DNA from: an uncultured Planctomycetales bacterium
GTDB taxonomy: Bacteria; Omnitrophota; Gorgyraeia; Zapsychrales; Fredricksoniimonadaceae
Length of the DNA: 64,000 bases
Reading direction: 5' to 3'
Assembly: GCA_964572155.1 (NCBI GenBank)
Contig: CAZNDZ010000003.1
Span: forward strand, 138,224-202,223
Below the pieces are notes generated by a model. The model was not told the DNA's origin. It saw nothing but the letters and a program-made list of their open reading frames with translations, and ran no database searches. Position 1 is the stretch's first letter; the number at the start of each line of letters is the position of its first letter. Below, piece by piece: positions 3,505 to 60,890 of the stretch. The translations under genes were made by a program, and so were the position numbers.

Positions 3505-3511
3505 AAAATCC

Positions 3512-4645: not shown

Positions 4646-4647
4646 GC

Positions 4648-5574: not shown

Positions 5575-5580
5575 AAAAAT

Positions 5581-7162: not shown

Positions 7163-7172
7163 AAGGGCTTGT

Positions 7173-7187
7173 GTTCAATTATTGAAC
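7173..7187. promoter_or_regulatory. Perfect 15-bp palindrome GTTCAATTATTGAAC, candidate operator immediately upstream of the wHTH regulator gene; a TATAAT hexamer lies just upstream on the minus strand
   Basis: Read directly; position 11-25 nt upstream of the minus-strand ATG at 7162. Confidence 0.45.
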
Positions 7188-7241
7188 GATAGATTATAAA
7201 TCGTTTGTGGCGCCTGTCAAGAATAACATTGAGATACCAAG

Positions 7242-11142: not shown

Positions 11143-11150
11143 ACTTAAAC

Positions 11151-31125: not shown

Positions 31126-31144
31126 GTAAACTCCCATCTCTCGT

Positions 31145-31280
31145 AGGGTTAATTAAAACGACTGCATCAGCGGGCATTCGGACTTGTTCCCTAGAGGGAC
31201 TTACCGTAGCGGGACTGCTCCTGAGTTGCACAGGATTTCCCCATCTGATACTTCAACAACGCTTCATACCCTGCATACAA
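31145..31280 (-). promoter_or_regulatory. Cobalamin (adenosylcobalamin) riboswitch in 5-prime leader of the TonB-dependent receptor gene
   Basis: Minus-strand GGGAAAUCCUGUGCAACUCAGGAGCAGUCCCGCUACGGUAAG matches the conserved core (E. coli btuB leader AGGGAAUCCAGUGCGAAUCUGGAGCUGACGCGCAGCGGUAAGG); downstream AAGUCCGAAUGCCCGCUG resembles the B12 box. Confidence 0.7.
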
Positions 31281-40168: not shown

Positions 40169-41244
40169 ATGAGGCTAATAATGTCTTTCACCGCCGTTGG
40201 TTTGGCCAAGACAGCAATCGCAGTACGTAATTTCTCTAGATTTCCTGGGGAGGCATTTAAATCATCGATGGTTGAAATGATTTGAGGCACGGTCATTTGA
40301 TCTTGAGCCACACCATACTTCTTTAAAACAAAAATATTTTGCATCTCTTGGCCTGGTATCGCAGAGAAGAATAACATCGGTAATCGTTTAACCAAGGCCT
40401 CAGCAATGGATAATCCACCTGGCTTTGTGACCATCACATCAGCGACGGACATCAACTCATCCATGTTATTGACAAGCCCAAAAATATGCACATAAGCACT
40501 CGCCTTTGGTAAAAGCTTTTCGTATAAAGCCTTGTTATGACCACAGACAACCAAGACATGATACCCTTTAAGACCATCAATCAACTCTTCGATTGGCCCC
40601 ATCCCAAATGATCCTGTTGCAATCAACACATTGATGGCTGGCGGATACAGTTTAAATTGCGCTTTTAATTGTGCTACATCCACATCTTTAGAAAATTGTG
40701 ATAATGTTGGAATGCCCGTCACAAAAGCACGATCTGGATGAACGCCTAGGGCAATCAATTTATCTTTGGTGAATAACGAAGCCCCTGTATAAATATCAAT
40801 GCCTTGATTAACCCAAATACGATGCACATCAAAATCAGTAACCACACAAACAACCTTAGATTTGATCTGCCCCGTACGTTTTAAATAGGCGCTGACCTCG
40901 GCAGATAAAAACTGAGTGGTGATGATGCAATCAAATTTCTCGTCGATAAGAAACTTTTGTAACGCTTGAGCGTTTAAACCATTATAAATGCGACGCACCA
41001 CCCGAACCGCAGGTTGTAACCAAGCAATATTCAACACCCCAAAAAAGAATGCCCACAAAAATGGAAACTTGGTGACCATGAGCGCATAAGTTTCTGGGTA
41101 GGTGACTTTGAAAAACGGATTGGTATAATCAAGCGCATCGACGAGCTTCGCATTATGTCCGTCAGCAATTAAACCTTGATAAACGGCTTCTGCGGCTTTC
41201 TTATGACCTGCTCCGGCTGTGGCGTGTATGACGAGGATTTTCAT
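40165..41244 (-). CDS. GT28-family glycosyltransferase (MGDG synthase / UgtP / MurG-like fold)
   Basis: MKILVIHATAGAGHKKAAEAV N-terminal G-rich loop typical of MGDG_synth; C-terminal GT28 domain. Confidence 0.65.
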   Translation of the reverse strand: MKILVIHATAGAGHKKAAEAVYQGLIADGHNAKLVDALDYTNPFFKVTYPETYALMVTKFPFLWAFFFGVLNIAWLQPAVRVVRRIYNGLNAQALQKFLIDEKFDCIITTQFLSAEVSAYLKRTGQIKSKVVCVVTDFDVHRIWVNQGIDIYTGASLFTKDKLIALGVHPDRAFVTGIPTLSQFSKDVDVAQLKAQFKLYPPAINVLIATGSFGMGPIEELIDGLKGYHVLVVCGHNKALYEKLLPKASAYVHIFGLVNNMDELMSVADVMVTKPGGLSIAEALVKRLPMLFFSAIPGQEMQNIFVLKKYGVAQDQMTVPQIISTIDDLNASPGNLEKLRTAIAVLAKPTAVKDIISLI

Positions 41245-41788
41245 CTAAAACTATTCTAACGGCATCGTGCAAATTGGCAACCACATAATCAGGTTTTGCA
41301 CCTTCCTTCAAAGCGAGCGCTTTGGTGCCCTTCCCTGATAAAACCAAGATGGTCCGAAATCCAGATGCCTGTCCTGTTTTAATATCAATGGGTGAATCTC
41401 CAATAAAGAAACTCCCCTTTAAATCTAAAAGGCGTTTCCCCAAACTTGCCGCGGCTTTTTGCACATTGGCAATCCCTGGTTTACGACAAGCACATTTGTC
41501 GTCGGGGTGATGTGTGCAATAAAAGCTTTTATGGATACGTCCGCCCGCTTTTACAACACCACGATGCAAATGTGCGTCAATTTGGTTGAGTTTTGCTTGG
41601 GTAAAACGACCACGGCCAACCCCAGCTTGGTTAGAGATAACAAAGACTTTATATTGATGTTGGGTTAAATCTGCAATGGCTTGTAATGAGCCAGGTATGA
41701 AATGAAAATCTTTGACCCGCGTGACGTAATCGCCATGTCCGGGGAATTGGTTGATCACCCCATCACGGTCAAGAAAAACTACATTCAC
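41201..41788 (-). CDS. gmhB: D-glycero-D-manno-heptose 1,7-bisphosphate phosphatase (HAD family)
   Basis: VFLDRDGVIN motif I; zinc-binding CTHHPDDKCACRKP; 195 aa. Confidence 0.8.
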   Translation of the reverse strand: MNVVFLDRDGVINQFPGHGDYVTRVKDFHFIPGSLQAIADLTQHQYKVFVISNQAGVGRGRFTQAKLNQIDAHLHRGVVKAGGRIHKSFYCTHHPDDKCACRKPGIANVQKAAASLGKRLLDLKGSFFIGDSPIDIKTGQASGFRTILVLSGKGTKALALKEGAKPDYVVANLHDAVRIVLDENPRHTRHSRSRS

Positions 41789-42548: not shown

Positions 42549-43649
42549 CTATAAGGATTCCTTTAGCGCTTGGACAACTGTTTGAACCTGTTCCTTGGTC
42601 ATATGTGGGAACATGGGCAAGCTCATGATCTGACTTGCAACTTTCTCAGCAACGGGAAAATCACCTTGCTTATAACCTAATTCAGCATATGCTTCTTGCA
42701 TATGCAAAGGAATTGGATAATGAATCAAAACACCGATGCCCTTGGCTTTCATGGATTCCATGACTTTATCGCGATTCGGCACCGTCACTGCAAATGTTTG
42801 ATACACATGTGTACGATCAGATTTAACAAACGGCGCTGTCACACCTTTAAGATCCTTTAACAATGCTCCATAATGCGCTGCAGCTTGTGCGCGCATCGCA
42901 TTCCATTGATCCAAATGCTTTAACTTTGCATTGAGCACCACCGCTTGGATGGTATCTAGACGGGAATTTGTCCCTTTGATTTTATGTTCATAGCGTCCTT
43001 GACGACCATAATCACGCAACATCAACGCTTTTTCATAGATATCTTTATTATTGGTAACAATCATACCTGCGTCGCCACATGCACCTAAACTCTTTGTTGG
43101 GTAAAACGAAAAACACGCTAAATCACCCAATGAACCAACACGGCGGCTATGATAGCGAGCACCATGGGCTTGAGCGGCATCTTCGACAACTTTAATATTA
43201 TGCTTCTTAGCAATGGCTTGAATTTCATCCATGTCCGCTGGCTGACCATACAAATGCACGACGATGATGGCCTTTGTTTTCTTGGTAATGGCCTTTTCAA
43301 TCGCCTTTGGATCCATGTTGTACGTATCAGGTTGAATATCTACAAAAACAGGTTTCGCACGGCAGAAAGAAACACACAATGCCGTTGCAATGAAGGTATG
43401 TGTTGGAACAATGACCTCATCACCTTCTTGTAATTCTAAGGTGGATAAACCTAAATGCAATGCATCAGTTCCAGAATTAACACCGACGGCATATTTTGCT
43501 TCGCAATAATTGGCAAAAGCTTTTTCAAAAATCTGAGCCTGTTCACCTAAGATATAATCGCCTTTTTCAAAAACCTTCTTGAAACCCACGTCAACTTCAT
43601 CTTGGATCAACTTATTTTGCTCTTTGAAATCAATGAACGGAATGCTCAT
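42549..43649 (-). CDS. DegT/DnrJ/EryC1/StrS-family PLP-dependent sugar aminotransferase (catalytic Lys present)
   Basis: ACFSFYPTKSLGACGDAGMIVTN with Lys in the PLP Schiff-base position. Confidence 0.85.
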   Translation of the reverse strand: MSIPFIDFKEQNKLIQDEVDVGFKKVFEKGDYILGEQAQIFEKAFANYCEAKYAVGVNSGTDALHLGLSTLELQEGDEVIVPTHTFIATALCVSFCRAKPVFVDIQPDTYNMDPKAIEKAITKKTKAIIVVHLYGQPADMDEIQAIAKKHNIKVVEDAAQAHGARYHSRRVGSLGDLACFSFYPTKSLGACGDAGMIVTNNKDIYEKALMLRDYGRQGRYEHKIKGTNSRLDTIQAVVLNAKLKHLDQWNAMRAQAAAHYGALLKDLKGVTAPFVKSDRTHVYQTFAVTVPNRDKVMESMKAKGIGVLIHYPIPLHMQEAYAELGYKQGDFPVAEKVASQIMSLPMFPHMTKEQVQTVVQALKESL

Positions 43650-44712
43650 ATACGAAACTCACCTTTCTATATACGTCCTCTACAGACAAGTCTTTTAAAC
43701 AACTAAAGTGTTCACACTGAGCTACAAAAAATCGCTTATAACACGGCTGACATGCTAAATTTTTCTTAACAACCTCATGACCAGCCGACGGATAGGGGCC
43801 GTAAACTTTTTCATCAACTGGACCAAAAATACTGATCGTCTTGACACCGCTGGCAACGGCCACATGTAAGGGGCCACCATCGTTAAGCACAGCTAAACTA
43901 CAATATTTCAATAAAGCTGCCATTTGCAAGATCGATGTTTGACCAACCGCGGAATAAACTGGTGAGGCTGCCAGAGAGGTGATCTCTGTTGCTAACCCTT
44001 GTTCCTTGGCATCACCGAATAGTATAACAGTGACACCTAGATCCGCAATCATTTTATCAATTAACTGTGCATATTTTGCCGCAGGCCAACGTTTTCGTTC
44101 TGCACGACCTCCCCAACTAGCACCGCCACCTGGCACAACCGCAACCAACTTAGAAACTTGGCTTATGTCATTGTTAACCAACCATTGCCCTGCCCAAATT
44201 TCCTCATCTTTACCCACATTCAGACGCATTGCCTTAACAACAGCAGGCACGTCAATAAACTTTAATAAATCAAGGTAATATTCAACAACATGTTTATTTT
44301 CATAGCCTTTAAGCTCTATTTTATGGGTTAACATGATCCCTCGACCCTTAAAATCATAGCCGATGCGCATCTTGATCCCTGCAATCCATGCTAAACAACC
44401 AAACATACGGTTTAAGGAAAAATCAACGGCAACATCGCAACGTTCTTGCCGTATGGCGTCGATAAAAGCAAACCATCTTTTTGCGTAGGCAAAAAAATTC
44501 TTTTTCCGCGCTTTAACAAACTCGTCGCGTTCATAAGATATAACATTGTCTACATTTGGATTTGATTTGATAAGAACAGCGGTGCGGTCATTGGCGATGT
44601 AGGAAATCCGCGCAAGTGGATATTTTTTCTTGATGTTGGCGATAACAGGATCTGCAAATAAACAATCACCGACACCAAAAGGATTGATAATTAGAATACG
44701 ATTGAATGTCAT
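43630..44712 (-). CDS. GT9 ADP-heptose:LPS heptosyltransferase family
   Basis: ILIINPFGVGDCLFADPVI N-terminus and C-terminal GGGASW...NDGGPLHVA motifs typical of RfaC/RfaF/RfaQ. Confidence 0.85.
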   Translation of the reverse strand: MTFNRILIINPFGVGDCLFADPVIANIKKKYPLARISYIANDRTAVLIKSNPNVDNVISYERDEFVKARKKNFFAYAKRWFAFIDAIRQERCDVAVDFSLNRMFGCLAWIAGIKMRIGYDFKGRGIMLTHKIELKGYENKHVVEYYLDLLKFIDVPAVVKAMRLNVGKDEEIWAGQWLVNNDISQVSKLVAVVPGGGASWGGRAERKRWPAAKYAQLIDKMIADLGVTVILFGDAKEQGLATEITSLAASPVYSAVGQTSILQMAALLKYCSLAVLNDGGPLHVAVASGVKTISIFGPVDEKVYGPYPSAGHEVVKKNLACQPCYKRFFVAQCEHFSCLKDLSVEDVYRKVSFVYEHSVH

Positions 44713-47856: not shown

Positions 47857-47859
47857 AAT

Positions 47860-49260: not shown

Positions 49261-49280
49261 ATTTAAAATATAATGCACAC

Positions 49281-52321: not shown

Positions 52322-53401
52322 TTACGTAACAACTTTCTTATAAACTTCATGTGTTTCTCGTGCAGTTTTCTCAAATGAAAAATCTAAAGCCCTTTTTAAA
52401 GCTTTTGATTTATAAGAGGCGCGCAAATCCGAATCTCCTAAAATACGCTGTAACATGCTAGCTATAGTCGATGGATCATTAGGATCAATTAATAATGCCG
52501 CATCTTTGGCAATCTCCCCACAACTCGAAAGTGAAGAACTCACCACACATGCCCCTGCGGCAAATGCCTCTATAATCGGAAAACCAAACCCTTCATAAAA
52601 AGACGGAAATACAAATGCTGTGCAGGTATTATAAAGGAAATTAAGCTCTTGATCACTGATAAATCCCGTAAAGATCACCTGAGACTCGAGCCCCATCTCT
52701 TTAATTTTCGCCGCAACATCGTCACTCTTCCATCCTTGCATCCCAACTACAACCAAAGGCACCTTAGTTTTTGACTCCGCCATAGCATGAACCAATCCTA
52801 ATAAATTCTTGCGTGGTTCAATAGTGCCAACAAATAATAAAAAGTCACCCTGTATGTTTTTTGTCTTTAAGAAATTCTTTGCCTGAGATAAATCTTTAAG
52901 GGCATGAAAAATATCATGATCAACACCATTATGCACAACACAAGAACGTTCTTTTGGAAATTCAAAGAAGCGATGCAGATCACTGCGTGTACTCTCTGAA
53001 ACGCAAATGATCCGATCAGCACGTGCCACAATCCCCTGCATATACTTTTCGGTTAGATCTATGGTTTCTTGAGTATGACTTTGCGGATATGTCCGATAAA
53101 TCATATCGTGGATGGTCACCACAACTTTACCGTTGAAGCTTTCTATGTCGGCAGGACTGGGCAAGTGATACAAATCACCCCAAGGCAGAGGCCTTGAAGA
53201 ATGATGAATGACACGATGAAAATTGGGATAATTAAAACGTGGGAGCTTACGTTTAAAATCAAAACGCTTCTTTTGCGCATAAAGCATGTAATCATTGCTG
53301 GCGTCCATCTTGCCTAATTGATCGATCAAATTGTACGTATAGCGTCCAATGCCCGTACGGTTACTTAAAAGAATCGATCGGCAGTTAACAACAATGCGCA
53401 T
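52322..53401 (-). CDS. GT4 family (GT-B fold) glycosyltransferase
   Basis: FVGTIEPRKN and EGFGFPIIEAFAAG EX7E motif. Confidence 0.85.
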   Translation of the reverse strand: MRIVVNCRSILLSNRTGIGRYTYNLIDQLGKMDASNDYMLYAQKKRFDFKRKLPRFNYPNFHRVIHHSSRPLPWGDLYHLPSPADIESFNGKVVVTIHDMIYRTYPQSHTQETIDLTEKYMQGIVARADRIICVSESTRSDLHRFFEFPKERSCVVHNGVDHDIFHALKDLSQAKNFLKTKNIQGDFLLFVGTIEPRKNLLGLVHAMAESKTKVPLVVVGMQGWKSDDVAAKIKEMGLESQVIFTGFISDQELNFLYNTCTAFVFPSFYEGFGFPIIEAFAAGACVVSSSLSSCGEIAKDAALLIDPNDPSTIASMLQRILGDSDLRASYKSKALKRALDFSFEKTARETHEVYKKVVT

Positions 53402-53406
53402 GCGCT

Positions 53407-54600
53407 TTAAACTGAATACCCTTTGCTTTTTAAGAATTTACCAACCACGTCGATCACATGGTCCATCTGTGAAATTTCAATGTCTTGATGGCAGCCGATG
53501 TGGGTTCCGTTGTCAGAACAGAATTCTGTTTCTGGGAAATCACCTAACTTATGACCCATGAATGCATAGCTTGGGGTTTGTGTGGGGATGGAATAGAACA
53601 AATTACGGGAATCAACACCTTCTTTCTCAAGATAGGTGACAAATTCATCTTTGGTAAATTTCATCCCTGGGCGCACGATCATGGAGAATGCATGAGGGCC
53701 TAATTTTTCATGGGCATCTTCTTGAACATAGATAAAATATTTCTCAAATTGCTTAAAGTGCTTGATCAAATATAAGATATTGCGACGACGTTTTTCTAAG
53801 ATGTCATGAAAAATTTCAATATTACCTAAACCCACCGCAGCTTCAATCTCATTCATCTTGGCAGAGAATCCAATACGCTCAAAACGGAATTTACCGTCGA
53901 TGCCATGATTACGCAAACTAGCAGCTGCCTTCGCCATTTGTTCATTGTTGGTGATGATCATGCCACCTTCGATCGTTGTAACAATGTGTGCAGCATATAA
54001 TGAGAAACATGCCATATCACCGATGGCACCAATTTTTTTGCCATTATATTCAGCACCATGTGCTTCGGCGGCATCTTCAATCACATACAATTTATGTTTT
54101 TTAGCGATGGCCATGATTTGATCCATCGCCGCAGGTTTTCCCATCAAATGTACGGGCATGATCGCGCGCGTGCGTGGGGTGATCGCGGCTTCTATCTTAT
54201 CGGGATCAATATTTAGCGTATTGCGATTCACGTCGACAAACACTGGTTTGAAACCTGCTTGCAACACCGCATTGCCTGTTGCCACAAAGGTTAATGCAGG
54301 GATGATAATCTCATCACCACGCTTGGCGCCAAAATCATATAAGACCGCACAGGCAATAGCATCAGCATCTGTTCCAGATGATACAGCAATCCCATATTTC
54401 ACGCCAAAGGTCGCGGCAAATCTTTCTTCAAACTCTTTTACATATTTACCCTTGGTTAACCATTTTTCGGCAATGGCCACATCGATTAACTTCTTGGCTT
54501 TTTCAGTGATCGACACTGTTCCAAATGGAACCTTATAATTGGCCTTCTTCGCTTCTTGTCCGTCGGAAATCGCGGTTGCTTTATTAAAATCTGTTTTCAT
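53407..54600 (-). CDS. DegT-fold PLP/PMP enzyme with His replacing the Schiff-base Lys: NDP-4-keto-6-deoxy-sugar 3-dehydratase (ColD/E1-like) rather than aminotransferase
   Basis: ACFSLYAAHIVTTIEGG, His205 (codon at 53986-53988) aligned to Lys of 42549-43649 and to the active-site His of ColD/E1. Confidence 0.65.
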   Translation of the reverse strand: MKTDFNKATAISDGQEAKKANYKVPFGTVSITEKAKKLIDVAIAEKWLTKGKYVKEFEERFAATFGVKYGIAVSSGTDADAIACAVLYDFGAKRGDEIIIPALTFVATGNAVLQAGFKPVFVDVNRNTLNIDPDKIEAAITPRTRAIMPVHLMGKPAAMDQIMAIAKKHKLYVIEDAAEAHGAEYNGKKIGAIGDMACFSLYAAHIVTTIEGGMIITNNEQMAKAAASLRNHGIDGKFRFERIGFSAKMNEIEAAVGLGNIEIFHDILEKRRRNILYLIKHFKQFEKYFIYVQEDAHEKLGPHAFSMIVRPGMKFTKDEFVTYLEKEGVDSRNLFYSIPTQTPSYAFMGHKLGDFPETEFCSDNGTHIGCHQDIEISQMDHVIDVVGKFLKSKGYSV

Positions 54601-55310
54601 TTAAGCTCCTTCAAGTGTTCTTGGGCCCACGCATAACGTTCTGGGGTGCCGATATCAATAAACTTATTTTGAACTTCAAACCCATAAAATCCTTGTTCTA
54701 CCAAGTGTGGGAAAAAGTCATATTCAATTGAGAACTTCTCAGGGGTTTTAACCAAATCAAAAACATTGCGGTTAAAACAATACGTACCTGTATTAATCAA
54801 AGCAGATTTCACCTCGGGTTGTTTTTCTTTAAAAGCGGTGATCTTGCTTTTACCGTCTACTTCGATCGTACCATAATCCCGCGCATCATCTAAACGTGTA
54901 ACGGCAATCGTTGCTTGTGCATGATTGTCATCATGAAACATGACAAGCTGATTATAATCGATCACGCAAAAACAGTCACCGTTCATCGCCAGAAATTTGT
55001 CTGTTTTAACTAACCCAGATCCCTTCTTAATAGCACCACCGGTACCAAGTGGCGTCTCTTCTCGGGAAAAAACCAACTCTAAATTTTTATGTGCTCCCTG
55101 CAAATGACGCTCAACAGCTTCTGCGCCATGGCCTGTGCATAAAATAAAACGGCGGCCACCAAAGGACGCCAAATATTCAATCAAAATAGAAATAAAGGGC
55201 TTATCACCAACTTGAACCAACACTTTCTGCTGGCCCCCTGTGACTGACGCTAATCGCTTGCCTAAACCACCGGCTAAAATGACTATATCAACATTAGATA
55301 AACGCGACAT
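54597..55310 (-). CDS. Sugar-1-phosphate nucleotidyltransferase, HddC-like (D-glycero-alpha-D-manno-heptose-1-phosphate guanylyltransferase)
   Basis: 237 aa; IVILAGGLGKRL N-terminal NTP-transferase motif; size and context with HddA. Confidence 0.7.
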   Translation of the reverse strand: MSRLSNVDIVILAGGLGKRLASVTGGQQKVLVQVGDKPFISILIEYLASFGGRRFILCTGHGAEAVERHLQGAHKNLELVFSREETPLGTGGAIKKGSGLVKTDKFLAMNGDCFCVIDYNQLVMFHDDNHAQATIAVTRLDDARDYGTIEVDGKSKITAFKEKQPEVKSALINTGTYCFNRNVFDLVKTPEKFSIEYDFFPHLVEQGFYGFEVQNKFIDIGTPERYAWAQEHLKELK

Positions 55311-55312: not shown

Positions 55313-56311
55313 TTATTTAACAACGCCTGTATCTGGCTGGAAGAAAATAATTTGACTGCCTAAATTCTCAAACTTGATCGGGACTTCTAATAATTTCTTT
55401 AACGCACTACGCACTTTATCTTGTTTATGTGGTTGCACGAAAAGCAGCACAAAGCCACCACCGCCAGCACCTAAAAGTTTACCGCCAATAGCTCCTGCGC
55501 GGATGGCTGTGGCGTACATGTCATCGATATTATCCGTTGATATTTTATCTGACAATGTGCGTTTTAATTTCCAACTCTCATCTAACAATTTGCCGAATTT
55601 TAAAATGTTTTTACCATTTAAGATCTCAAGCGCTTCGCCTGCCATTTCATACATACGGCCAAGCTCTTGTTTTTTATTTGGAATGTTCTTAATTTGATGT
55701 TGTGCGATTTGAGACGCTGTTCTCGAAAATCCGGTAAAGAACAACATCAGATGATCTTGCAATAAATTTAATTTCTCAATGGGCAACGTCACCGGTTGAA
55801 CGCGCAAATGATTCTGCCCACCAAACTCAATGTAATTAAAACCACCGTATGCCGCCAACATTTGATCTTGGCATCCGACATTTTCTTTAATCATATCTTG
55901 TTCAATGTGAATCGCTTCTTTGGCCAATTGTTCTTTGGTTGTCATGCGACCTTTAAGCGCATAGAGCGAATTTAACAATCCGACGGTAAATGACGAACTG
56001 GAGCCTAAACCGGTACGCGCTGGTAAATCCCCATCATGATGAATTTCAACGCCTTCTTTAATTTTAAGGTAACGTAAGACTTCGCGAACAGAAGGGTGAT
56101 CAATGTCATTGATGCCGTGCACATGTTCCATCTTGGAATAGATGATGCGGCTCTTATGTTCAAAGAATGGTGGCAAATAACGGCAGCTGATATAACAATA
56201 CTTATCAATGGTGGTGGCCAAGACAGCGCCTTTATGTTCATTAAACCAACCATTGTAATCAGTTCCGCCGCCAAAGAAAGACATGCGAAACGGTGTGCGT
56301 GAAATAATCAT
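55313..56311 (-). CDS. hddA: GHMP kinase, D-glycero-alpha-D-manno-heptose 7-phosphate kinase HddA-like
   Basis: MIISRTPFRMSFFGGGTD N-terminus nearly identical to HddA consensus MIISRTPLRISFAGGGTD; GHMP motif PARTGLGSSSS. Confidence 0.75.
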   Translation of the reverse strand: MIISRTPFRMSFFGGGTDYNGWFNEHKGAVLATTIDKYCYISCRYLPPFFEHKSRIIYSKMEHVHGINDIDHPSVREVLRYLKIKEGVEIHHDGDLPARTGLGSSSSFTVGLLNSLYALKGRMTTKEQLAKEAIHIEQDMIKENVGCQDQMLAAYGGFNYIEFGGQNHLRVQPVTLPIEKLNLLQDHLMLFFTGFSRTASQIAQHQIKNIPNKKQELGRMYEMAGEALEILNGKNILKFGKLLDESWKLKRTLSDKISTDNIDDMYATAIRAGAIGGKLLGAGGGGFVLLFVQPHKQDKVRSALKKLLEVPIKFENLGSQIIFFQPDTGVVK

Positions 56312-56320: not shown

Positions 56321-57829
56321 TTAAACAGTAGAGGTTTCCAAAATCTTGCGTTTTAATTTAATTTGCGTCGACTTCAATGTTTCATCGACAGCAATTTGAC
56401 CGAACTTTGTCTTTAATAAATCTAAGAATTTAGGATTCGTGTGATACTTCATCCATGCTTCATCACGGAATGCCAAAACTTGGTTTGCACTTAAATATTT
56501 TGTCGGCAAAGGTTGGCATTCATAGGAATGCTGTGAAAACCCTGCATAACTCGACGGGAGTTTCCAACCTTCTTTCTTGGCAATCCCATACAAAGGGCTA
56601 CCTGGATAAGCCATGGCTGAATAAAAATTAGCTTCTTCGGTATTCATTTCAATCGCCAAATCAAGCGTCATCTTCATGCTGTCAATATCATCTTCAGGAA
56701 GACCAAAGATATAATTACCAATGACATTGATGCCATGATCGCGAATTTTCTTAACGACGGCATGAATATCCACATCATCAAATCGACCCTTGGTCACATC
56801 TTTACGCACACGGGTATTGCCGCTTTCAATCCCTAAAGCCAACCAATTAACCCCTGCCTTCTTTAATGTGGCTAAATATTGGTCTTTAACGGTATCGACA
56901 CGTGAATAACACCAGATATTAAATTTATAACCGCGCTCAATGATCATTTCGCAAATGCGCATGAAGTGATCCGCACGTAAAACGAAAAGCTCGTCGGCAA
57001 TTTTAATATTCGTAATGCCCTGAGAAGCAAAGAAATCAAATTCTTTAATGATATGCTCTGGATCCCAATAACGGAAAACTGCCGAACCGTCGGAGAATTC
57101 ATTCTCTTGACGATTGATGATATTAATCATACAGAAAGAACATTTCATCGGGCAACCAAGCGACGTGTATAACGCGGCAAACGGTTGACGCTGTGAATTA
57201 TTCGGATACGAATGCCACAATGCGGTGCGATAATTCTTTATCGGTAATAAATCCCAAGCAATGCCTGGCATTTCACGCGGCAAATCTGCTTTTGCGACAA
57301 TGGGCGATGGTTTATTTAAAACAATTTGACCATCTTTTCTCCAACCTAACCCATCGACTAAATCCAACTTATCTTTCAAATTGGTTTTAAGTAAATTTGA
57401 TAACGTGTAAACCCCTTCGTTTTGACAAACGAAATCAATGGCAGGATGATTTTCTAATACTTCACGCGATAATGCTGATATATGACCACCGACAAATGCA
57501 ATTTTAATCGATGACGCATTAGCTTTAACCAATTCAGCTAAACCAATCGCGCCGGCCATATTTTGAGAACTGGCTGATGGTTGTTGACCGTAAACAACAA
57601 AACAAACAACCTTAGGGTTAGCTTCTTTGATCTTACTGGCAGCTTGCTCATCGCTTAAATGCAAGGCTTCCGCATCTAAAATATCGACGGAGAAACCTTT
57701 AACACGGCAATGACTGGCCAACATGCCCGCCCAAATAGGAGGCTCTATCGCCGAATAATCTTTCGCTAAATCTTGGTAGATTTTGCGTGAAGCGTTGGGA
57801 TGAACAAAGAGGATATCGAGTTGGCTCAT
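56321..57829 (-). CDS. Cobalamin-binding (class B) radical SAM enzyme, candidate sugar C-methyltransferase
   Basis: 502 aa; N-terminal B12-binding-like Rossmann domain; CPMKCSFC (CxxxCxxC) radical SAM cluster motif. Confidence 0.8.
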   Translation of the reverse strand: MSQLDILFVHPNASRKIYQDLAKDYSAIEPPIWAGMLASHCRVKGFSVDILDAEALHLSDEQAASKIKEANPKVVCFVVYGQQPSASSQNMAGAIGLAELVKANASSIKIAFVGGHISALSREVLENHPAIDFVCQNEGVYTLSNLLKTNLKDKLDLVDGLGWRKDGQIVLNKPSPIVAKADLPREMPGIAWDLLPIKNYRTALWHSYPNNSQRQPFAALYTSLGCPMKCSFCMINIINRQENEFSDGSAVFRYWDPEHIIKEFDFFASQGITNIKIADELFVLRADHFMRICEMIIERGYKFNIWCYSRVDTVKDQYLATLKKAGVNWLALGIESGNTRVRKDVTKGRFDDVDIHAVVKKIRDHGINVIGNYIFGLPEDDIDSMKMTLDLAIEMNTEEANFYSAMAYPGSPLYGIAKKEGWKLPSSYAGFSQHSYECQPLPTKYLSANQVLAFRDEAWMKYHTNPKFLDLLKTKFGQIAVDETLKSTQIKLKRKILETSTV

Positions 57830-57831: not shown

Positions 57832-58761
57832 TTAGATATTCGCGTACTGGTTGCGTTTAATGACTTGGTAGCCTTTGATGAGTTCAGCGATGCCAGCTTG
57901 CAAGCTTACACTTGTTCTAAAGCCTGTTTTTTCAATCTTTTCATTGCTGACAATGTAATCGCGCTTATCTGGATCTTCGCCGATGGTTGCTTCCACAAAA
58001 TAAAAATCAGGAACTAACTTTTTAATCTCTTGGCACAACTGCAATTTTGTTAAATTTGCATCACTAAGTCCAACATTATAGGGTTGCTTTTTCATCTTGT
58101 CAAAATTATTCAACCCATGAACGAAAGCGCGGGAAATATCGCGCACGTGAATGTAGTTACGGTTAAAATGCGCTTCAAATAAAACCACAAAACGATCATA
58201 CACCGCACGATAGGTAAAATCATTAACCAACAAATCTAATCGCATGCGAGGTGAAACGCCAAACGCAGTGGCTAAACGCAACGTGATGCCGCCTGCATCT
58301 AAGATAGCATTTTCAGCGTCCACTTTAAGTTTTCCGTACAAAGAAATTGGACGCAATGGTGTCTCCTCGGTGCAATGCTTGCCCTTTTCACCCACCCCAT
58401 AACCGCTATTGGTGGTTGGGAAAATCATCATTTGCTCTTTAGACTTCAAATCAATGATCATGTTAATGGAATCTAACAAGATGGTCGTCGCACCCACAGG
58501 ATCTTTGGCACATAATGGCGCGCCGGTTAAACAAGCCAGTGGAAAGATCGCATCAACGCTCTTCATCAGTTTAGTGATTAAGACTTTATCGCGCGTATCC
58601 CCACGAATGATCGTCAATTTTGGATGATGGCAGCAATCAAGCAGCGAAGATTGATTGTACATAAAGTTATCTAAGGCAATGACCTCGTGCCCTTCGTTTA
58701 ACAAAATTGGCGTTAAAACCGACCCAATATACCCTGCCGCACCCGTAACTAAAATTTTCAT
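57832..58761 (-). CDS. NAD-dependent epimerase/dehydratase family SDR
   Basis: MKILVTGAAGYIGS, YGKLK catalytic YxxxK. Confidence 0.8.
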   Translation of the reverse strand: MKILVTGAAGYIGSVLTPILLNEGHEVIALDNFMYNQSSLLDCCHHPKLTIIRGDTRDKVLITKLMKSVDAIFPLACLTGAPLCAKDPVGATTILLDSINMIIDLKSKEQMMIFPTTNSGYGVGEKGKHCTEETPLRPISLYGKLKVDAENAILDAGGITLRLATAFGVSPRMRLDLLVNDFTYRAVYDRFVVLFEAHFNRNYIHVRDISRAFVHGLNNFDKMKKQPYNVGLSDANLTKLQLCQEIKKLVPDFYFVEATIGEDPDKRDYIVSNEKIEKTGFRTSVSLQAGIAELIKGYQVIKRNQYANI

Positions 58762-59687
58762 ATACTACCCTTTCTATACCATTGAATTGTTTGGCTAATA
58801 CCTTGCTCTAAATTGATTTTGGGCGACCATCCCAAATTCTTTATACGCTCATTATCCATCAATTTACGTAAAGTTCCGTCAGGCTTTGTTGTATCAAAAA
58901 CAATCTTACCTTTAAACCCAGCGATTTGTGCGATCATTTTTGCTAAATCTTTGATGCTAATATCGTCCCCGCTGCCCATGTTGATTAATTGAGCATCGTT
59001 ATATTTATTCATGAGCAATATACAGGCATCGACAAAATCATCGACATATAAAAACTCACGGCGGGCTTTGCCTGTGCCCCAAACTTCGACGGTTGGGCTA
59101 TTTTTCTCAACAGCTTGAGTAAACTTTGCCATCAACGAGCCCATGACATGCGCATTAGCTAAATCATCGTCACTACCTGGGCCATAAAGCGTTGCAGGAA
59201 CTGCAACAATGGCATTAAATCCATATTGAGCACGATACGCTTGCGCCATTATGGTGCCAGCAATTTTAGCGACGGAATAAGGAGCGCTGCTTGATTCAAG
59301 CGATCCCGTTAACAAGGATTCTTCTTTAATCGGCTGTTTAGCCAAGGCAGGATACGCGCAAGAACCTGTGAAATATAATAATTTCTTAACCTTATGAGTA
59401 TAGGCCGCATGCATGACATGACTTTGGGCCATGCAATTTTCATAGATGAATTCGGCAGGCATCTTTAGATTTGCACCAATTCCGCCGGAACGGATCGAAC
59501 CTAAAAATACATATTCTGGTTGCTCGGCTTTAAAGAACTTTGCAACCTTGGACGCATCTAAGACATCTATTTTATTAAAGTTGTTAGAATACACATGATC
59601 AAACCCACGCGAACGTAAACCTGATACCAAAGAATTTTCGATGGCTTCCTTATGTCCGACGATAAAAATGCGTGAATTTTTCTGCAT
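58758..59687 (-). CDS. GDP-L-fucose synthase-like (GDP-4-keto-6-deoxy-sugar 3,5-epimerase/4-reductase, Fcl/WcaG family)
   Basis: RIFIVGHKEAIENSL, PYSVAKIAG, TLYGPGSDD motifs match Fcl family. Confidence 0.8.
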   Translation of the reverse strand: MQKNSRIFIVGHKEAIENSLVSGLRSRGFDHVYSNNFNKIDVLDASKVAKFFKAEQPEYVFLGSIRSGGIGANLKMPAEFIYENCMAQSHVMHAAYTHKVKKLLYFTGSCAYPALAKQPIKEESLLTGSLESSSAPYSVAKIAGTIMAQAYRAQYGFNAIVAVPATLYGPGSDDDLANAHVMGSLMAKFTQAVEKNSPTVEVWGTGKARREFLYVDDFVDACILLMNKYNDAQLINMGSGDDISIKDLAKMIAQIAGFKGKIVFDTTKPDGTLRKLMDNERIKNLGWSPKINLEQGISQTIQWYRKGSI

Positions 59688-59691: not shown

Positions 59692-60276
59692 TTACTGGCT
59701 GGTTTTCATACCTTTGGCATAATACTCTTCGTTATAGTAGTTGCCGTGTTCAATGATGAGCGTCGACTTTCCGTCGGTGCGCGTTAATGCTTTCTGATAT
59801 GCTGGGAAAATTTGATCCGCTGTATCAAGTTCAATGACTTCGATCCAATGAAATAATGCACGAAATGCTTGTGCGTAATTCCCAATATGTTGATGCCCTG
59901 GGTGCACTGGCGCATCAGGACCTGTTGCCACTCTAATGATAACTTTAATCGGCCATTTACCTTCGCTGACATCTGGCATCTTATCAATCATATTAGCCAT
60001 ATCCGCCGCCGCTAACATCAAAAAGTTTTGTCTAGGATAAACCGAAACAGGTATATATCCTGCCAATGCCATCCCTAAGGTAAACTGCATTTGAAAGCTT
60101 TCATTGATGGGCATTTCAAGCGTGCGGTCTTTAGGGCAATCCCTCAAGGTTTGAAACATGAATGTGCCAGGCCCTGCAACGGTTTGACCAACAAACTGCA
60201 CCTTATCTTGAGTGGCAAGCCACTCCATGGTGCGTTTTAATTCATCAAAATATTTGAGTTGTGTGGATGTTTCCAT
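59692..60276 (-). CDS. Transketolase-like TPP enzyme, pyrimidine-binding (Pyr) domain subunit
   Basis: INESFQMQFTLGMALAG (catalytic Glu region like TK VREFGM) and GPDAPVHPGHQ. Confidence 0.55.
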   Translation of the reverse strand: METSTQLKYFDELKRTMEWLATQDKVQFVGQTVAGPGTFMFQTLRDCPKDRTLEMPINESFQMQFTLGMALAGYIPVSVYPRQNFLMLAAADMANMIDKMPDVSEGKWPIKVIIRVATGPDAPVHPGHQHIGNYAQAFRALFHWIEVIELDTADQIFPAYQKALTRTDGKSTLIIEHGNYYNEEYYAKGMKTSQ

Positions 60277-60278
60277 AA

Positions 60279-60890
60279 TTAGAACTTAATGAGCTTACCC
60301 AAACCTGAATGTGGATAGCCGTTGGTGTATTTGAAATATATGATCTTCTTTTCGTATTTTGTCCCCTTAAACCAAGGATCAGGTGAGCCCCATGTTTCGC
60401 GGGTATTGGTCATGACGGACACACCATTATCTCCGACGATAAAGACCGCTGGTAAATCAAAATTACAAGCATATTTAACCGCTTCATGGAAAATGCCTGT
60501 TTCAGCTGACATATCACCACAAAAAAGAAAAGCCCGACCTTTTTTACCTTGATTCTTAAGCGACCATGCGACCCCTGTAGCCGTACCCATTAAGGAACCG
60601 ACAATACCTGAGCATAAAACTTTCTTTTCAGGGAAACATAAAGAAATGCTGCGACCTCTAAGAATCGCATCTTTGACATCTTTGGCAGGAACACCTTTAA
60701 GTAACGCTAATTCATGCGAATCCCAGAATCCAAAAATATAATCATCATCATTGATATCATAATCTTTGAATATTTGAATTAACGCATCTTCACGGCCAGA
60801 ACGCAAATGCACAGGTGCACGGATAACGCCTGTTGCAAAAACGTCAGCAATATCTTTTTCAAAAGCAATGATTTCTTCTTTAGTTAACAT
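60279..60890 (-). CDS. Transketolase-like TPP enzyme, diphosphate-binding (PP) domain subunit
   Basis: APVHLRSGREDAL and FLFCGDMSAETGIFHEAVKYA...VFIVGDNG TPP-binding GDG-X-N motif. Confidence 0.65.
   Translation of the reverse strand: MLTKEEIIAFEKDIADVFATGVIRAPVHLRSGREDALIQIFKDYDINDDDYIFGFWDSHELALLKGVPAKDVKDAILRGRSISLCFPEKKVLCSGIVGSLMGTATGVAWSLKNQGKKGRAFLFCGDMSAETGIFHEAVKYACNFDLPAVFIVGDNGVSVMTNTRETWGSPDPWFKGTKYEKKIIYFKYTNGYPHSGLGKLIKF

What the first reader, a model, noticed from the sequence alone, without database searches (positions are those of the whole stretch)
56321..57829. Cobalamin-dependent radical SAM enzyme embedded in a sugar-nucleotide operon
Class B radical SAM proteins (B12-binding domain plus CxxxCxxC) typically methylate unactivated carbons. 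Placement between HddA and the SDR/Fcl genes suggests C-methylation or another radical rearrangement of a nucleotide-heptose. Such chemistry is known mainly from actinomycete antibiotic pathways, not Gram-negative surface glycans. The B12 riboswitch-BtuB unit 25 kb away would supply the cofactor.
Basis: partly seen in the sequence, partly recalled or inferred. Interest (0 to 1): 0.7.

Follow-up and report, generated by a model that had tools for sequence, protein, structure and literature searches.

The report
B12-type radical SAM enzyme, branched-heptose operon
This gene encodes an uncharacterised cobalamin-type radical SAM enzyme that almost always sits next to genes that make GDP-heptose, turn it into a 3-deoxy-4-keto sugar and attach a carbon branch with a thiamine enzyme, so it probably makes a still-unknown complex surface sugar found in many environmental bacteria.

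Summary
ORF 56321-57829 (-) encodes a 502-aa protein with an N-terminal B12-binding Rossmann domain and a radical SAM barrel (CX3CX2C: C226/C230/C233). Both Pfam domains pass their curated cutoffs, and the AF2 model (pLDDT 94) matches class-I B12-rSAM structures. It passes no curated subfamily model (HpnJ, BchE, AprD4 and the methylase models all fail).

The host is Candidatus Omnitrophota. The heptose context is real: the neighbouring SDR is about 60% identical to C. jejuni Cj1427 (GDP-heptose C4-dehydrogenase). HddA-, HddC- and GmhB-like genes are present, and a cyanobacterial relative also has GmhA.

The 'DegT' gene has His in place of the catalytic Lys, so it is a ColD-type 3-dehydratase. 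The tightest partner is a ThDP enzyme: 96-97% of divergent loci and about 98% of close ones. It occurs in four interchangeable forms that cover all three ThDP classes linked to sugar C-branching.

The module recurs in Elusimicrobia, cyanobacteria, SAR11 single-cell genomes, Azospirillum and Solidesulfovibrio magneticus RS-1.

The enzyme most likely tailors a ThDP-branched GDP-3-deoxyheptose. The chemistry is unresolved: C-methylation about 0.4, non-methylating C-C chemistry about 0.3, AprD4-like dehydration about 0.15.

The parts
56321..57829 (-). B12-binding-domain radical SAM protein (502 aa), the finding itself. Uncharacterised family.
57832..58761 (-). Cj1427-type NAD-dependent GDP-heptose C4-dehydrogenase (SDR, 309 aa)
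   Evidence: About 60% identical over the full length to PDB 6VO6/6VO8, E 2.4e-119. Entry titles identify Cj1427, and 6VO8 has GDP-D-glycero-D-mannoheptose bound. Function per PMC10680097. Co-occurs with the rSAM in 95% of close and 73-78% of divergent loci.
53407..54600 (-). DegT-family protein with His replacing the catalytic Lys: a ColD/E1(RfbH)-type PMP-dependent sugar C3-dehydratase
   Evidence: Motif FSLYAAHIVTTIEGG, against SFYPTKSLGAFGDGG in ordinary aminotransferases of the same loci. The His is conserved in Omnitrophota, Elusimicrobia, SAR11, cyanobacterial and RS-1 orthologues. Best NCBIfam hit is RfbH. ColD and E1 are among the PDB hits. C. jejuni HS:5 has an analogous GDP-heptose C3-dehydratase.
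60279..60890 (-). Minimal ThDP enzyme alpha subunit (E1 PP-domain only, 203 aa)
   Evidence: Pfam E1_dh, 48.8 bits. PDH E1-alpha in the PDB. GDM-X26-DN ThDP motif read directly from the sequence. Replaced by full-size E1 alpha/beta, split transketolase or YerE-type enzymes in relatives.
59692..60276 (-). Minimal ThDP enzyme beta subunit (Pyr domain only, 194 aa)
   Evidence: Pfam Transket_pyr, 31.3 bits. Syntenic with the alpha subunit in 34/40 close loci.
58758..59687 (-). Fcl-like GDP-sugar epimerase/4-reductase (SDR2, 309 aa)
   Evidence: NCBIfam GDP-fucose synthase, 365 bits (cutoff 500). PDB: E. coli Fcl 8e-78, plus several 'GDP-L-fucose synthase' entries near 1e-71 (7m13, 7anc, 7anh, 8ewu); from memory, not checked here, these are C. 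jejuni heptose C4-reductases. An Fcl- or SDRb-type SDR occurs in 98% of close and 45-48% of divergent loci.
55313..56311 (-). HddA-like GHMP sugar kinase (332 aa)
   Evidence: Best PDB hits are D-glycero-D-manno-heptose 7-phosphate kinases: 4n3o 1e-35, 3k85, 4usk. NCBIfam HddA 152 bits, below the 600 cutoff. 59% identical to the kinase in the cyanobacterial locus that also has GmhA and GmhB.
54597..55310 (-). HddC/ManC-like sugar-1-phosphate (guanylyl)transferase (237 aa)
   Evidence: Pfam NTP_transferase 123 bits. NCBIfam HddC 137 bits (cutoff 300) and ManC-like 145 bits.
41201..41788 (-). GmhB-like heptose-1,7-bisphosphate phosphatase (HAD-IIIA, 195 aa)
   Evidence: NCBIfam NF006506, 160 bits against a 178 cutoff. 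An ORF of the same length (195-196 aa) sits at the corresponding position, after GT9, a DegT-family gene and a ~253-aa ORF, in L088, L091 and L096.
52322..53401 (-). GT4 glycosyltransferase, often syntenic
   Evidence: Pfam Glycos_transf_1 / Glyco_transf_4. Present in 38/80 loci.
43630..44712 (-). GT9 (heptosyltransferase-family) glycosyltransferase, frequently syntenic
   Evidence: Pfam PF01075, 99 bits. Found in 65% of close loci.
31164..31251 (-). AdoCbl-II cobalamin riboswitch (context only: corrinoid import)
   Evidence: Rfam RF01689, 40.4 bits against a 36.5 gathering score.
29143..31137 (-). TonB-dependent receptor directly downstream of the riboswitch (BtuB-like by position)
   Evidence: Pfam Plug plus TonB_dep_Rec_b-barrel.

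Best explanation
The protein is a class-I cobalamin-type radical SAM enzyme. It acts as a tailoring step in a conserved pathway that builds a C-branched, 3-deoxygenated GDP-heptose for a surface glycan.

Supported by homology and synteny: sedoheptulose-7-P is converted to GDP-D-glycero-D-manno-heptose by GmhA (elsewhere in the genome), the HddA-like kinase, the GmhB-like phosphatase and the HddC-like transferase. The Cj1427-type SDR oxidises C4. The His-type DegT protein removes the C3 hydroxyl to give GDP-3-deoxy-4-keto-heptose.

Inferred from precedent (YerE, alphaKADH2 and split transketolases): the two-subunit ThDP enzyme adds an acyl anion, here a C2 unit from pyruvate, to the C4 ketone. 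This gives a tertiary alpha-hydroxy-ketone branch.

Inferred, and my committed guess: the radical SAM enzyme cleaves SAM at its [4Fe-4S] cluster, abstracts a hydrogen from an unactivated sp3 carbon of this branched sugar nucleotide (the C6/C7 side chain or the branch), and transfers a methyl group from methylcobalamin, as GenK and Fom3 do at hydroxymethyl-type carbons. The Fcl-like SDR then reduces the remaining ketone, and the glycosyltransferases install the sugar.
For: Domains, motif and fold.

Cbl-type N-domain: the family profile aligns to the Cbl domains of TsrM (residues 30-397, E 1e-21) and OxsB (32-372, E 3e-19). Conserved GGH and (G/N)EG loops follow the Rossmann strands, as in TokK and QCMT. 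The residue at +2 after the third Cys is hydrophobic (Ile/Val in 71/76), at the position of TokK Trp215, which the review PMC12931638 describes as a generally hydrophobic residue in B12-rSAM enzymes, polar in TsrM and absent in OxsB.

Pathway partners: Cj1427 orthologue; His-type dehydratase; heptose genes.

Co-occurrence within 8 kb: ThDP enzyme in 96-97% of loci at 45-65% identity and 39/40 close loci; DegT-His 78-98%; Cj1427-like SDR 73-95%. On IMG/VR contigs the ThDP enzyme is present in 42/42. The whole operon is present in S. magneticus RS-1 pDMC1.

ThDP precedents for branching keto-sugars: PMC9306805 and PMC12247030.

For methylation specifically: most characterised class-B enzymes are methylases. 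HpnJ, the best HMM hit, co-clusters at stringent SSN threshold with Fom3 and MoeK5, which the review lists among single C-methylases (PMC9204698). From my own knowledge, Fom3 acts on a CMP-linked substrate and MoeK5 on a sugar. The cell imports corrinoids. The rSAM is among the most conserved genes of the operon: median 78% identity across 34 Omnitrophota loci, against 46% for the nucleotidyltransferase and 58% for Fcl.
Against: No direct evidence for methyl transfer or for cobalamin binding.

The two highest-scoring curated HMMs, HpnJ (152.6 bits) and BchE (117), are non-methylating, ring-forming enzymes. The methylase models score lower, 52-86 bits.

The near-absolute coupling is to the ThDP enzyme rather than to the heptose genes. 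That suggests chemistry centred on the new alpha-hydroxy-ketone branch. Carbons alpha to that ketone would not need a radical methylase.

The order of steps is inferred, and the product is unknown. The lower-axial residue assignment (Tyr80 aligned to TsrM Arg69) rests on a remote sequence alignment.
Confidence: 0.4

Rival explanations
1. A non-methylating radical C-C enzyme, like HpnJ, BchE or OxsB. After the ThDP enzyme installs the acyl branch at C4, the 5'-deoxyadenosyl radical abstracts H from C7 (or C3). The substrate radical then either attacks the branch carbonyl to close a five-membered carbocycle (C4-C5-C6-C7-C8), or triggers a 1,2-acyl shift. Cobalamin would serve as a redox or electron-sink cofactor. 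With a heptose plus a pyruvate-derived acetyl branch, the cyclised product has the constitution of caryose (4,8-cyclo-3,9-dideoxy-nonose): 3-deoxy from the dehydratase, a 9-methyl from pyruvate, and tertiary alcohols at C4 and C8.
For: The top curated HMM hits are HpnJ (sugar to cyclopentane ring contraction, proposed) and BchE (isocyclic ring formation). Radical SAM enzymes (Cds, HpnJ) are the postulated catalysts of sugar carbocyclisation, and how caryose is made is 'currently unknown' (PMC9092360). The rSAM is coupled more tightly to the ThDP enzyme (96-97%) than to any other partner, whatever acyl donor class that enzyme uses. This fits chemistry at the common C1' ketone or C4 centre. The gene set (heptose + 4-dehydrogenase + 3-dehydratase + C2 donor) accounts for every carbon and every deoxy position of caryose; this is my inference from the structure quoted.
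Against: HpnJ has no biochemical confirmation. HpnJ also co-clusters with the methylases Fom3 and MoeK5. The hydrophobic +2 residue resembles methylases rather than OxsB. Radical addition to a ketone carbon is unusual chemistry. No carrier organism is known to make caryose-like sugars, and I could not examine Burkholderia/Trinickia caryophylli. Heptose kinase genes lie next to the rSAM in only 36-39% of divergent loci, and a hexose could not give a five-membered ring.
Confidence: 0.3
2. An AprD4-like, cobalamin-independent radical dehydratase working with an SDR reductase, as AprD4 works with AprD3. It would abstract H next to a vicinal diol (the C6/C7 side-chain diol, or the C4-OH/C1'-OH diol after branch reduction) and eliminate a hydroxyl. 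The Fcl-like SDR would reduce the resulting carbonyl, giving a further deoxygenated branched sugar. The N-terminal Rossmann domain would bind substrate, not B12.
Confidence: 0.15
3. The gene is not functionally tied to the sugar-nucleotide pathway. It would modify another substrate (a lipid, protein or cofactor) and merely be co-located.
For: No experiment links it to the pathway. Class-B rSAM enzymes have very diverse substrates.
Against: Synteny with the same four or five sugar-pathway partners persists from 93% down to about 42% identity, across Omnitrophota, Elusimicrobia, cyanobacteria, SAR11, Azospirillum and Desulfovibrionales, despite gene-order shuffling and replacement of the ThDP enzyme by non-homologous classes. 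The gene overlaps or abuts its neighbours in one operon.
Confidence: 0.05

Closest known systems
Class-I cobalamin-dependent radical SAM enzymes with solved structures (QCMT/MgmA 9CCB, CysS 9N1B, TsrM 6WTE, TokK 7KDX, OxsB 5UL4)
   Different: 12-21% identity in the structural alignments. No C-terminal extension comparable to TokK, CysS or OxsB; this protein has 502 aa against 626-731 modelled residues in those chains. The context is a GDP-heptose / ThDP-branching operon, which none of them has. Cobalamin binding is unproven.
AprD4 (radical SAM 1,2-diol dehydratase of apramycin biosynthesis, PDB 6FD2)
   Different: AprD4 does not bind cobalamin. Its N-domain is not detectably similar in sequence. 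Its cluster motif reads CX3CX3C in the alignment. The family HMM gives 89.7 bits against a 500 cutoff.
HpnJ (hopanoid BHT-glucosamine to cyclitol ether) and BchE (anaerobic Mg-protoporphyrin cyclase)
   Same: The highest-scoring curated family models (152.6 and 117 bits). B12-domain rSAMs that act without methyl transfer, and HpnJ acts on an amino-sugar.
   Different: Far below the equivalog cutoffs (577.6 and 481). I noticed no hopanoid or bacteriochlorophyll genes among the operon and neighbouring ORFs I annotated. HpnJ chemistry itself is unverified.
GenK / Fom3 / MoeK5-type Cbl-dependent C-methylases of sugar- or nucleotide-linked substrates
   Same: Same enzyme class. They methylate unactivated sp3 carbons. 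From my own knowledge, Fom3's substrate is a nucleotide (CMP) conjugate and GenK's target is the hydroxymethyl-type C6' carbon. This is the analogy for a GDP-heptose C6/C7 methylation.
   Different: Not compared directly, because no curated model or sequence was available here. Those enzymes come from actinomycete antibiotic pathways, and none is associated with ThDP branching enzymes.
C. jejuni capsular GDP-heptose modification pathways (HddA/HddC, Cj1427, HS:5 C3-dehydratase, C4-reductases)
   Same: Same enzyme types for the first half of the pathway. The Cj1427 orthologue is about 60% identical. Cj1427 plus the C3-dehydratase gives GDP-D-glycero-4-keto-3-deoxy-heptose in vitro (PMC10680097).
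   Different: The paper describing these pathways mentions no radical SAM enzyme. As far as I know the C. jejuni pathways have no ThDP enzyme either, and end with epimerisation and C4 reduction.
ThDP-dependent acyl-branched sugar pathways (YerE/ErwE for yersiniose and erwiniose; alphaKADH2 E1 alpha/beta for aldgarose and kibdelomycin sugars; split transketolases proposed for miharamycin)
   Same: A 3-deoxy-4-keto NDP-sugar acceptor, a ThDP carboligase and a reductase. All three ThDP classes are found next to this rSAM.
   Different: The review of these enzymes mentions no radical SAM. The acceptors are CDP/TDP hexoses rather than GDP-heptose. The ~200-aa 'mini-E1' subunits seen here lack the C-terminal transketolase domain of described alphaKADH2 enzymes. 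The bioinformatically identified split transketolases were reported only from Streptomycetes.

Membership tests
Cobalamin-dependent (class B) radical SAM superfamily | CX3CX2C motif for the SAM-cleaving [4Fe-4S] cluster in a radical SAM barrel | tested here: met
   C226/C230/C233 invariant in 76/76 sequences. PF04055 67.2 bits against 29.5.
Cobalamin-dependent (class B) radical SAM superfamily | Rossmann-type B12-binding domain (PF02310), N-terminal to the barrel (class I architecture) | tested here: met
Cobalamin-dependent (class B) radical SAM superfamily | Actual binding of, and requirement for, cobalamin | not testable with these tools
   AprD4 shows that a related Rossmann domain can lack Cbl. 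Needs purification and UV-vis or LC-MS of the cofactor.
Cbl-dependent radical C-methyltransferases (GenK/Fom3/TokK type) | Methyl transfer from MeCbl to a substrate carbon radical, with SAH and 5'-dAH as co-products | not testable with these tools
   Indirect only: hydrophobic I235 at the TokK W215 position. The curated methylase HMMs all fail: PhpK 79.9/600, Sden_1168 85.9/575, QCMT 81.3/360, HpnR 53.5/650, KedN5 52.3/700, TsrM 30.3/500.
AprD4 family radical SAM diol-dehydratase (NF033070) | Family HMM score at or above cutoff, and AprD4-type cluster motif and N-domain | tested here: not met
   89.7 bits against 500. AprD4 reads GCPYPCRFYC (CX3CX3C) in the alignment, against CX3CX2C here. The N-domain alignment scores -3.0.
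HpnJ (TIGR03471) | Equivalog HMM cutoff, and a hopanoid gene context | tested here: not met
   152.6 bits against 577.6. The context is a sugar-nucleotide / ThDP operon in every locus examined.
BchE (TIGR02026) | Equivalog HMM cutoff | tested here: not met
   117 bits against 481.35.
GDP-D-glycero-D-manno-heptose pathway (GmhA, HddA, GmhB, HddC) as the source of substrate | All four enzymes encoded with the module | tested here: inconclusive
   The window has HddA-like (152/600), HddC-like (137/300) and GmhB-like (160/178) genes, all below curated cutoffs, and no GmhA. Relative L167 has GmhB (179.6, at or above 178), GmhA (203.8 against 209.45), HddA-like and HddC-like genes beside the rSAM.
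Cj1427-type GDP-heptose C4-dehydrogenase | Close full-length homology to the structurally and biochemically characterised enzyme | tested here: met
   E 2.4e-119, about 60% identity over 307 residues to 6VO6. Entry titles confirm Cj1427. Activity itself was not tested.
ColD/E1-type PMP-dependent sugar 3-dehydratase | Active-site His in place of the Schiff-base Lys of DegT aminotransferases | tested here: met
   His at the Lys position in the window protein and in 98% of close and about 80% of divergent loci. Ordinary aminotransferases in the same loci keep Lys. That ColD and E1 carry this His is from my own knowledge, not a paper read here.
ThDP-dependent sugar C-branching enzymes (alphaKADH2 / TK / YerE-like) | ThDP-binding two-domain enzyme encoded beside genes that make a deoxy-keto NDP-sugar acceptor | tested here: met
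   E1_dh plus Transket_pyr subunits, with a GDM-X26-DN motif. Replaced in relatives by full E1 alpha/beta, split TK or TPP_enzyme_N/M/C proteins. Carboligation onto the sugar was not tested.

The most novel reading that the evidence does not exclude
The rSAM is a sugar carbocyclase (or acyl mutase) that works on the ThDP-installed branch. Together with the Cj1427-type oxidase, the His-type 3-dehydratase and the C2-donating ThDP enzyme, it would convert GDP-heptose into a caryose-type carbocyclic C9 sugar (4,8-cyclo-3,9-dideoxynonose skeleton) or a related new higher-carbon sugar. That would give the first biosynthetic route to this class. It would also reveal an unrecognised, very widespread family of complex surface sugars in Omnitrophota, Elusimicrobia, cyanobacteria, SAR11-type marine bacteria and possibly viruses.
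Probability: 0.15. Interest if true: 0.85.

Novelty: new variant of a known kind. Interest (0 to 1): 0.66.

Why it matters
B12-dependent radical SAM enzymes are a large, mostly uncharacterised class. According to the reviews read here, the characterised members come from antibiotic, RiPP, cofactor and lipid pathways.

This finding defines a large family: 746 50%-identity representatives at E<=1e-30, and thousands of sequences. It has a sharply defined, conserved genetic context that no curated model or paper I could find describes: a radical SAM enzyme coupled to ThDP-dependent C-branching of a GDP-3-deoxy-4-keto-heptose.

If the inference holds, three things follow:
- Many environmental bacteria, including abundant marine and freshwater lineages and a candidate phylum, would decorate their surface with a complex branched, methylated or carbocyclic higher-carbon sugar of unknown structure.
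- It would be the first radical SAM step assigned to surface-glycan sugar-nucleotide tailoring, as far as my literature searches show.
- It would tie envelope biosynthesis to cobalamin availability in B12 auxotrophs.

It is directly testable. The substrate GDP-D-glycero-D-manno-heptose and the first two enzymes have published in vitro systems. The full operon also exists in cultured organisms: Solidesulfovibrio magneticus RS-1 pDMC1, Azospirillum spp. and a cyanobacterium.

Tried and rejected
1. Erwiniose or caryophyllose as heptose-derived products of C7 methylation. Rejected: PMC9306805 explains these as CDP-3,6-dideoxy-4-keto-hexose plus longer alpha-keto-acid donors via YerE-like enzymes.
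2. Presence in SAR11 as evidence against cobalamin use. Dropped: SAR11 is described as a B12 auxotroph with btuB, so it does use B12 (PMC9296465).
3. 'DegT' as a GDP-perosamine-synthase-type aminotransferase (the best PDB hits). Rejected, because the catalytic Lys is His.
4. 'TPP-less' loci as exceptions. Rejected: they carry YerE-type ThDP enzymes. A. lipoferum 4B has no ThDP gene within 12 kb, but its Cj1427-like SDR lies about 24 kb away on the same plasmid. I did not search the rest of that replicon for ThDP genes.
5. Confirming 6VO6 = Cj1427 from papers. The search for '6VO6' was uninformative, and PMC7509852 and PMC7500870 are not held. It was solved through PDB entry titles. The single-sequence model used for that is poor (pLDDT 33.6), so its fold scores were ignored.
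The AFDB50 fold library was not available. PMC544256 (AviB1/B2) is not held.
7. Cavity or ligand analysis of the Cbl site was not possible, because model coordinates are not exposed.
8. Literature link between Azospirillum glycans and unusual branched or higher sugars: none found. No paper combining radical SAM, heptose and cobalamin-dependent was relevant.
9. Viral origin of the marine and freshwater loci. IMG/VR lists 303 contigs, but there are no hallmark genes within +-6 kb, no PHROG match for the rSAM, and no hit in GenBank phages. Left open.
10. No reference sequences or curated models for them were accessible.
Full report
OBSERVATION. The ORF at 56321-57829 (minus strand) is real: ATG to stop, 502 aa. 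Pfam finds a B12-binding domain (PF02310, residues 27-146, 59.2 bits against a cutoff of 32.1) and a Radical_SAM domain (PF04055, residues 222-391, 67.2 bits against 29.5). The cluster motif is C226-x3-C230-x2-C233. In a 76-sequence family alignment spanning 33-93% identity these are the only invariant cysteines, so there is no SPASM or auxiliary-cluster signature. The gene lies in a co-directional, translationally coupled run of sugar-nucleotide genes. An AdoCbl-II riboswitch (31164-31251, minus) sits directly 5' of a TonB-dependent receptor (29143-31137) about 25 kb away.

WHO CARRIES IT. The closest homologues are 76-93% identical (120 clusters shown) and those that carry a name are Candidatus Omnitrophota MAGs. 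The family is large: 746 representatives of 50%-identity clusters at E<=1e-30. It also occurs in:
- Elusimicrobia, at 73-74%;
- Pelagibacteraceae single-cell genomes, at about 60%;
- cyanobacteria, including the cultured Aerosakkonemataceae BLCC-F154, and Acidobacteria;
- plasmids or chromids of Azospirillum lipoferum 4B, A. argentinense Az39, A. ramasamyi and Solidesulfovibrio magneticus RS-1, at 42-44%.

WHAT KIND OF ENZYME. No curated NCBIfam equivalog is reached. The best scores are HpnJ 152.6 bits (cutoff 577.6), BchE 117 (481), ApyD 107 (750) and AprD4 89.7 (500). The methylase models score 52-86 bits, and HemN 37.

An AlphaFold model built on the family alignment is very confident: pLDDT 94.3, pTM 0.93.

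At sequence-profile level AprD4 aligns only over the radical SAM half (residues 211-431), and its N-domain scores -3.0. TsrM (30-397) and OxsB (32-372) align across the cobalamin domain. In that alignment AprD4's cluster motif reads CX3CX3C, whereas this family has CX3CX2C.

A 2026 review states that AprD4 does not bind cobalamin although it appears in B12-rSAM networks. It also says radical methylases keep a hydrophobic environment around the corrin. Here the residue at +2 after the third Cys, the position of TokK Trp215 and TsrM Glu236, is Ile or Val in 71/76 sequences. The β3-loop residue that aligns to TsrM Arg69 is mostly Tyr.

I conclude that this is a class-I B12-type radical SAM protein. 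Cobalamin binding is likely, roughly 70-75%, but unproven.

THE PATHWAY AROUND IT.

(1) The upstream SDR (57832-58761) is about 60% identical over its full length to PDB 6VO6/6VO8, E 2.4e-119. The entry titles identify these as C. jejuni Cj1427, and 6VO8 is in complex with GDP-D-glycero-D-mannoheptose. [quoted passage not shown]

(2) The best structural relatives of the GHMP kinase (55313-56311) are heptose-7-phosphate kinases. The nucleotidyltransferase (54597-55310) resembles HddC/ManC. A GmhB-like phosphatase lies at 41201-41788, scoring 160 bits against a 178 cutoff. In the cyanobacterial locus L167 the rSAM sits beside GmhA, a GmhB that passes its cutoff, HddA-like and HddC-like genes. 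Heptose as the substrate is therefore well supported.

(3) The 'DegT' gene (53407-54600) has His where aminotransferases have the Schiff-base Lys: FSLYAAHIVTTIEGG, against SFYPTKSLGAFGDGG in ordinary aminotransferases of the same loci. The His is conserved in every lineage examined. As I know it, this is the signature of ColD/E1-type 3-dehydratases. C. jejuni HS:5 has such an enzyme, and Cj1427 plus that dehydratase gives GDP-D-glycero-4-keto-3-deoxy-heptose in vitro.

(4) Two ~200-aa proteins (59692-60890) form a minimal E1-type ThDP enzyme: PP domain and Pyr domain, with a GDM-X26-DN motif.

(5) An Fcl-like SDR (58758-59687) and GT4, GT2 and GT9 transferases complete the set.

CONSERVATION OF THE MODULE. 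I called ORFs in 165 related loci and compared them with the window's genes.
- Among loci at >=65% identity with at least 5 kb on both sides (n=40), the kinase, nucleotidyltransferase and DegT genes are present in 100%, His-type DegT in 98%, the Cj1427-like SDR in 95% and a ThDP pair in 90%. The ThDP figure is 39/40 when the tblastn results are used.
- Among loci at 45-65% identity (n=23; n=33 with at least 3 kb flanks), a ThDP enzyme is present in 96-97%, His-type DegT in 78-82%, the Cj1427-like SDR in 73-78% and the kinase in 36-39%.

The ThDP enzyme takes four non-orthologous forms: mini-E1, full-size E1 alpha/beta, split transketolase, and a YerE/acetolactate-synthase type of 610-637 aa. 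The last is often paired with a PanB-like alpha-keto-acid hydroxymethyltransferase. Together these forms cover the three ThDP superfamilies that are known or proposed to attach acyl branches to deoxy-keto sugars: YerE-like decarboxylases, alphaKADH2 and transketolases (PMC9306805, PMC12247030).

The full operon is annotated on S. magneticus RS-1 plasmid pDMC1: GT2-GT2-rSAM-NUDIX-kinase-E1 alpha-E1 beta-Fcl-DegT(His)-SDR-nucleotidyltransferase-...-ArnT-like GT. A. argentinense Az39 p5 has the rSAM, Cj1427-like SDR and kinase next to a split transketolase and a second cobalamin-dependent protein.

Across 34 Omnitrophota loci the rSAM is among the most conserved genes, with a median identity of 78%, against 46% for the nucleotidyltransferase, 58% for Fcl and 45-50% for the GTs. 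Together with the frequent GT9 neighbour, this suggests a conserved envelope component rather than a strain-variable O-antigen in that phylum. This last point is inference.

MECHANISM. The steps below are supported by homology to characterised enzymes, not by assay:
- GDP-heptose synthesis;
- C4 oxidation;
- C3 deoxygenation, giving a 3-deoxy-4-keto sugar nucleotide.

Inferred from precedent: ThDP-mediated addition of an acyl anion (C2 from pyruvate for E1-type enzymes) to the C4 ketone. This creates a tertiary alpha-hydroxy-ketone branch, as in yersiniose biosynthesis.

The rSAM is tied most tightly to this step, so its substrate is most likely the branched sugar nucleotide. Its chemistry cannot be decided computationally. 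I commit to cobalamin-dependent radical C-methylation of an unactivated carbon, analogous to GenK and Fom3, at about 0.4. The reasons are:
- most characterised class-B enzymes are methylases;
- HpnJ, the top HMM hit, co-clusters with the methylases Fom3 and MoeK5 at stringent SSN thresholds;
- the corrin-side residues look methylase-like.

The main rival, at about 0.3, is non-methylating C-C chemistry. The top two curated hits (HpnJ, BchE) are ring-forming non-methylases, and the coupling to the ThDP enzyme holds whatever donor class is used. A heptose with a 4-C-acetyl branch, a 3-deoxy position and C7-C8 closure also has exactly the constitution of caryose (4,8-cyclo-3,9-dideoxynonose). Its biosynthesis is reported as unknown, and radical SAM enzymes are the postulated sugar carbocyclases (PMC9092360).

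An AprD4-like, Cbl-independent dehydration with SDR-mediated reduction is a third option, at about 0.15. It rests on the top structural match and is weakened by the motif and N-domain differences.

COMPARISON WITH THE KNOWN, AND NOVELTY. The protein belongs to the B12-binding-domain radical SAM superfamily by domain, motif and fold. It fails the tests for every curated subfamily, so it is a distinct, uncharacterised family.

The first half of its pathway matches the C. jejuni capsular heptose pathways. The paper describing them mentions no radical SAM enzyme, and as far as I know they contain no ThDP enzyme. The branching logic matches the YerE and alphaKADH2 pathways, and the review of those enzymes also mentions no radical SAM. 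My literature searches found nothing linking a B12-rSAM to heptose or to ThDP sugar branching.

I rate it a new variant of a known kind: a known enzyme class in a new, sharply defined pathway, with an unknown product and reaction.

VERDICT. Interest is 0.66.

Noticed in passing
Family homologues P0124, P0127, P0144; equivalent to window protein residues ~230 and ~343: Some family members are 640-940 aa because inteins (Hint / Intein_splicing domains with HNH or LAGLIDADG homing endonucleases) interrupt the protein. The usual insertion point is immediately after the CX3CX2C Fe-S motif. One is after about residue 343.
   Followed up: partly
L171-L250 (IMG/VR contigs); L101 and L172 appear to be the same 71,074-bp contig: 303 contigs classed as viral in IMG/VR encode this rSAM at 52-61% identity with the module intact: ThDP enzyme in 42/42 and Cj1427-like SDR in 33/42 of loci of at least 12 kb. 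However, the +-6 kb flanks hold only glycan genes, the rSAM matches no PHROG family, and 50,697 GenBank phage genomes give no hit. Viral carriage is unverified.
   Followed up: partly
L084 (locus of P0163), 1-11441: A 41%-identical homologue sits next to a second B12-rSAM, glycosyltransferases, a protein with a ubiquitin-activating-enzyme E1_FCCH domain and an Asp/Arg hydroxylase. This gene mix is unusual for bacteria and might be a giant virus or a eukaryote-associated element.
   Followed up: no
P0180 (1173 aa); L106, L107, L126; L170 7129-8874: Tandem or fused duplicates of the B12-rSAM occur. One protein has two complete B12+rSAM units. Several loci carry two paralogues, and A. argentinense Az39 p5 has a second 'cobalamin-dependent protein' beside the split transketolase. 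This hints at two successive radical steps in some pathways.
   Followed up: no
window 61555-63192 (-): A 545-aa FAD_binding_4 (GlcD / 2-hydroxyacid dehydrogenase-like) oxidase lies immediately upstream of the operon and is conserved only in the closest relative, L002. Cj1427-type enzymes reduce alpha-ketoglutarate to 2-hydroxyglutarate, so an adjacent 2-hydroxyacid oxidase could recycle it. This is speculative, and the stereochemistry may not match.
   Followed up: no
window 31164-31709 (-): A DUF6580 ORF (31191-31709, 144 bits) ends inside the 5' part of the AdoCbl-II riboswitch (31164-31251), which precedes the TonB-dependent receptor. Either the ORF's 3' end overlaps the riboswitch or the two are separately regulated units.
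   Followed up: no
L103 4131-6977; L154 6183-8995; L148 5556-8273; L171, L174-L177: In marine loci the rSAM neighbours a PanB-like ketopantoate hydroxymethyltransferase plus a YerE-type ThDP enzyme. This parallels the aldolase (ErwI) plus ErwE logic for longer acyl donors, and suggests hydroxymethylated alpha-keto-acid donors for the sugar branch.
   Followed up: partly
L167 4091-4567; L169 11503-11982; L168 14732-15370: A NUDIX hydrolase recurs next to the HddA-like kinase in the cyanobacterial, S. magneticus and A. lipoferum clusters, but is absent from the window's operon.
   Followed up: no
window 46276-49955: An MBOAT acyltransferase (47860-49278), an SGNH/GDSL hydrolase on the opposite strand (49281-49955) and a TPR-SGNH protein (46276-47856) sit inside the glycan region. 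This looks like a glycan O-acylation set.
   Followed up: no
window 34023-35989 (-): Two adjacent paralogous GalT/HIT-family (galactose-1-phosphate uridylyltransferase-like) genes lie next to GAPDH.
   Followed up: no
L171 11313-12509: A second, unrelated radical SAM protein with a SPASM domain lies a few genes downstream of the B12-rSAM on a 186-kb IMG/VR contig.
   Followed up: no
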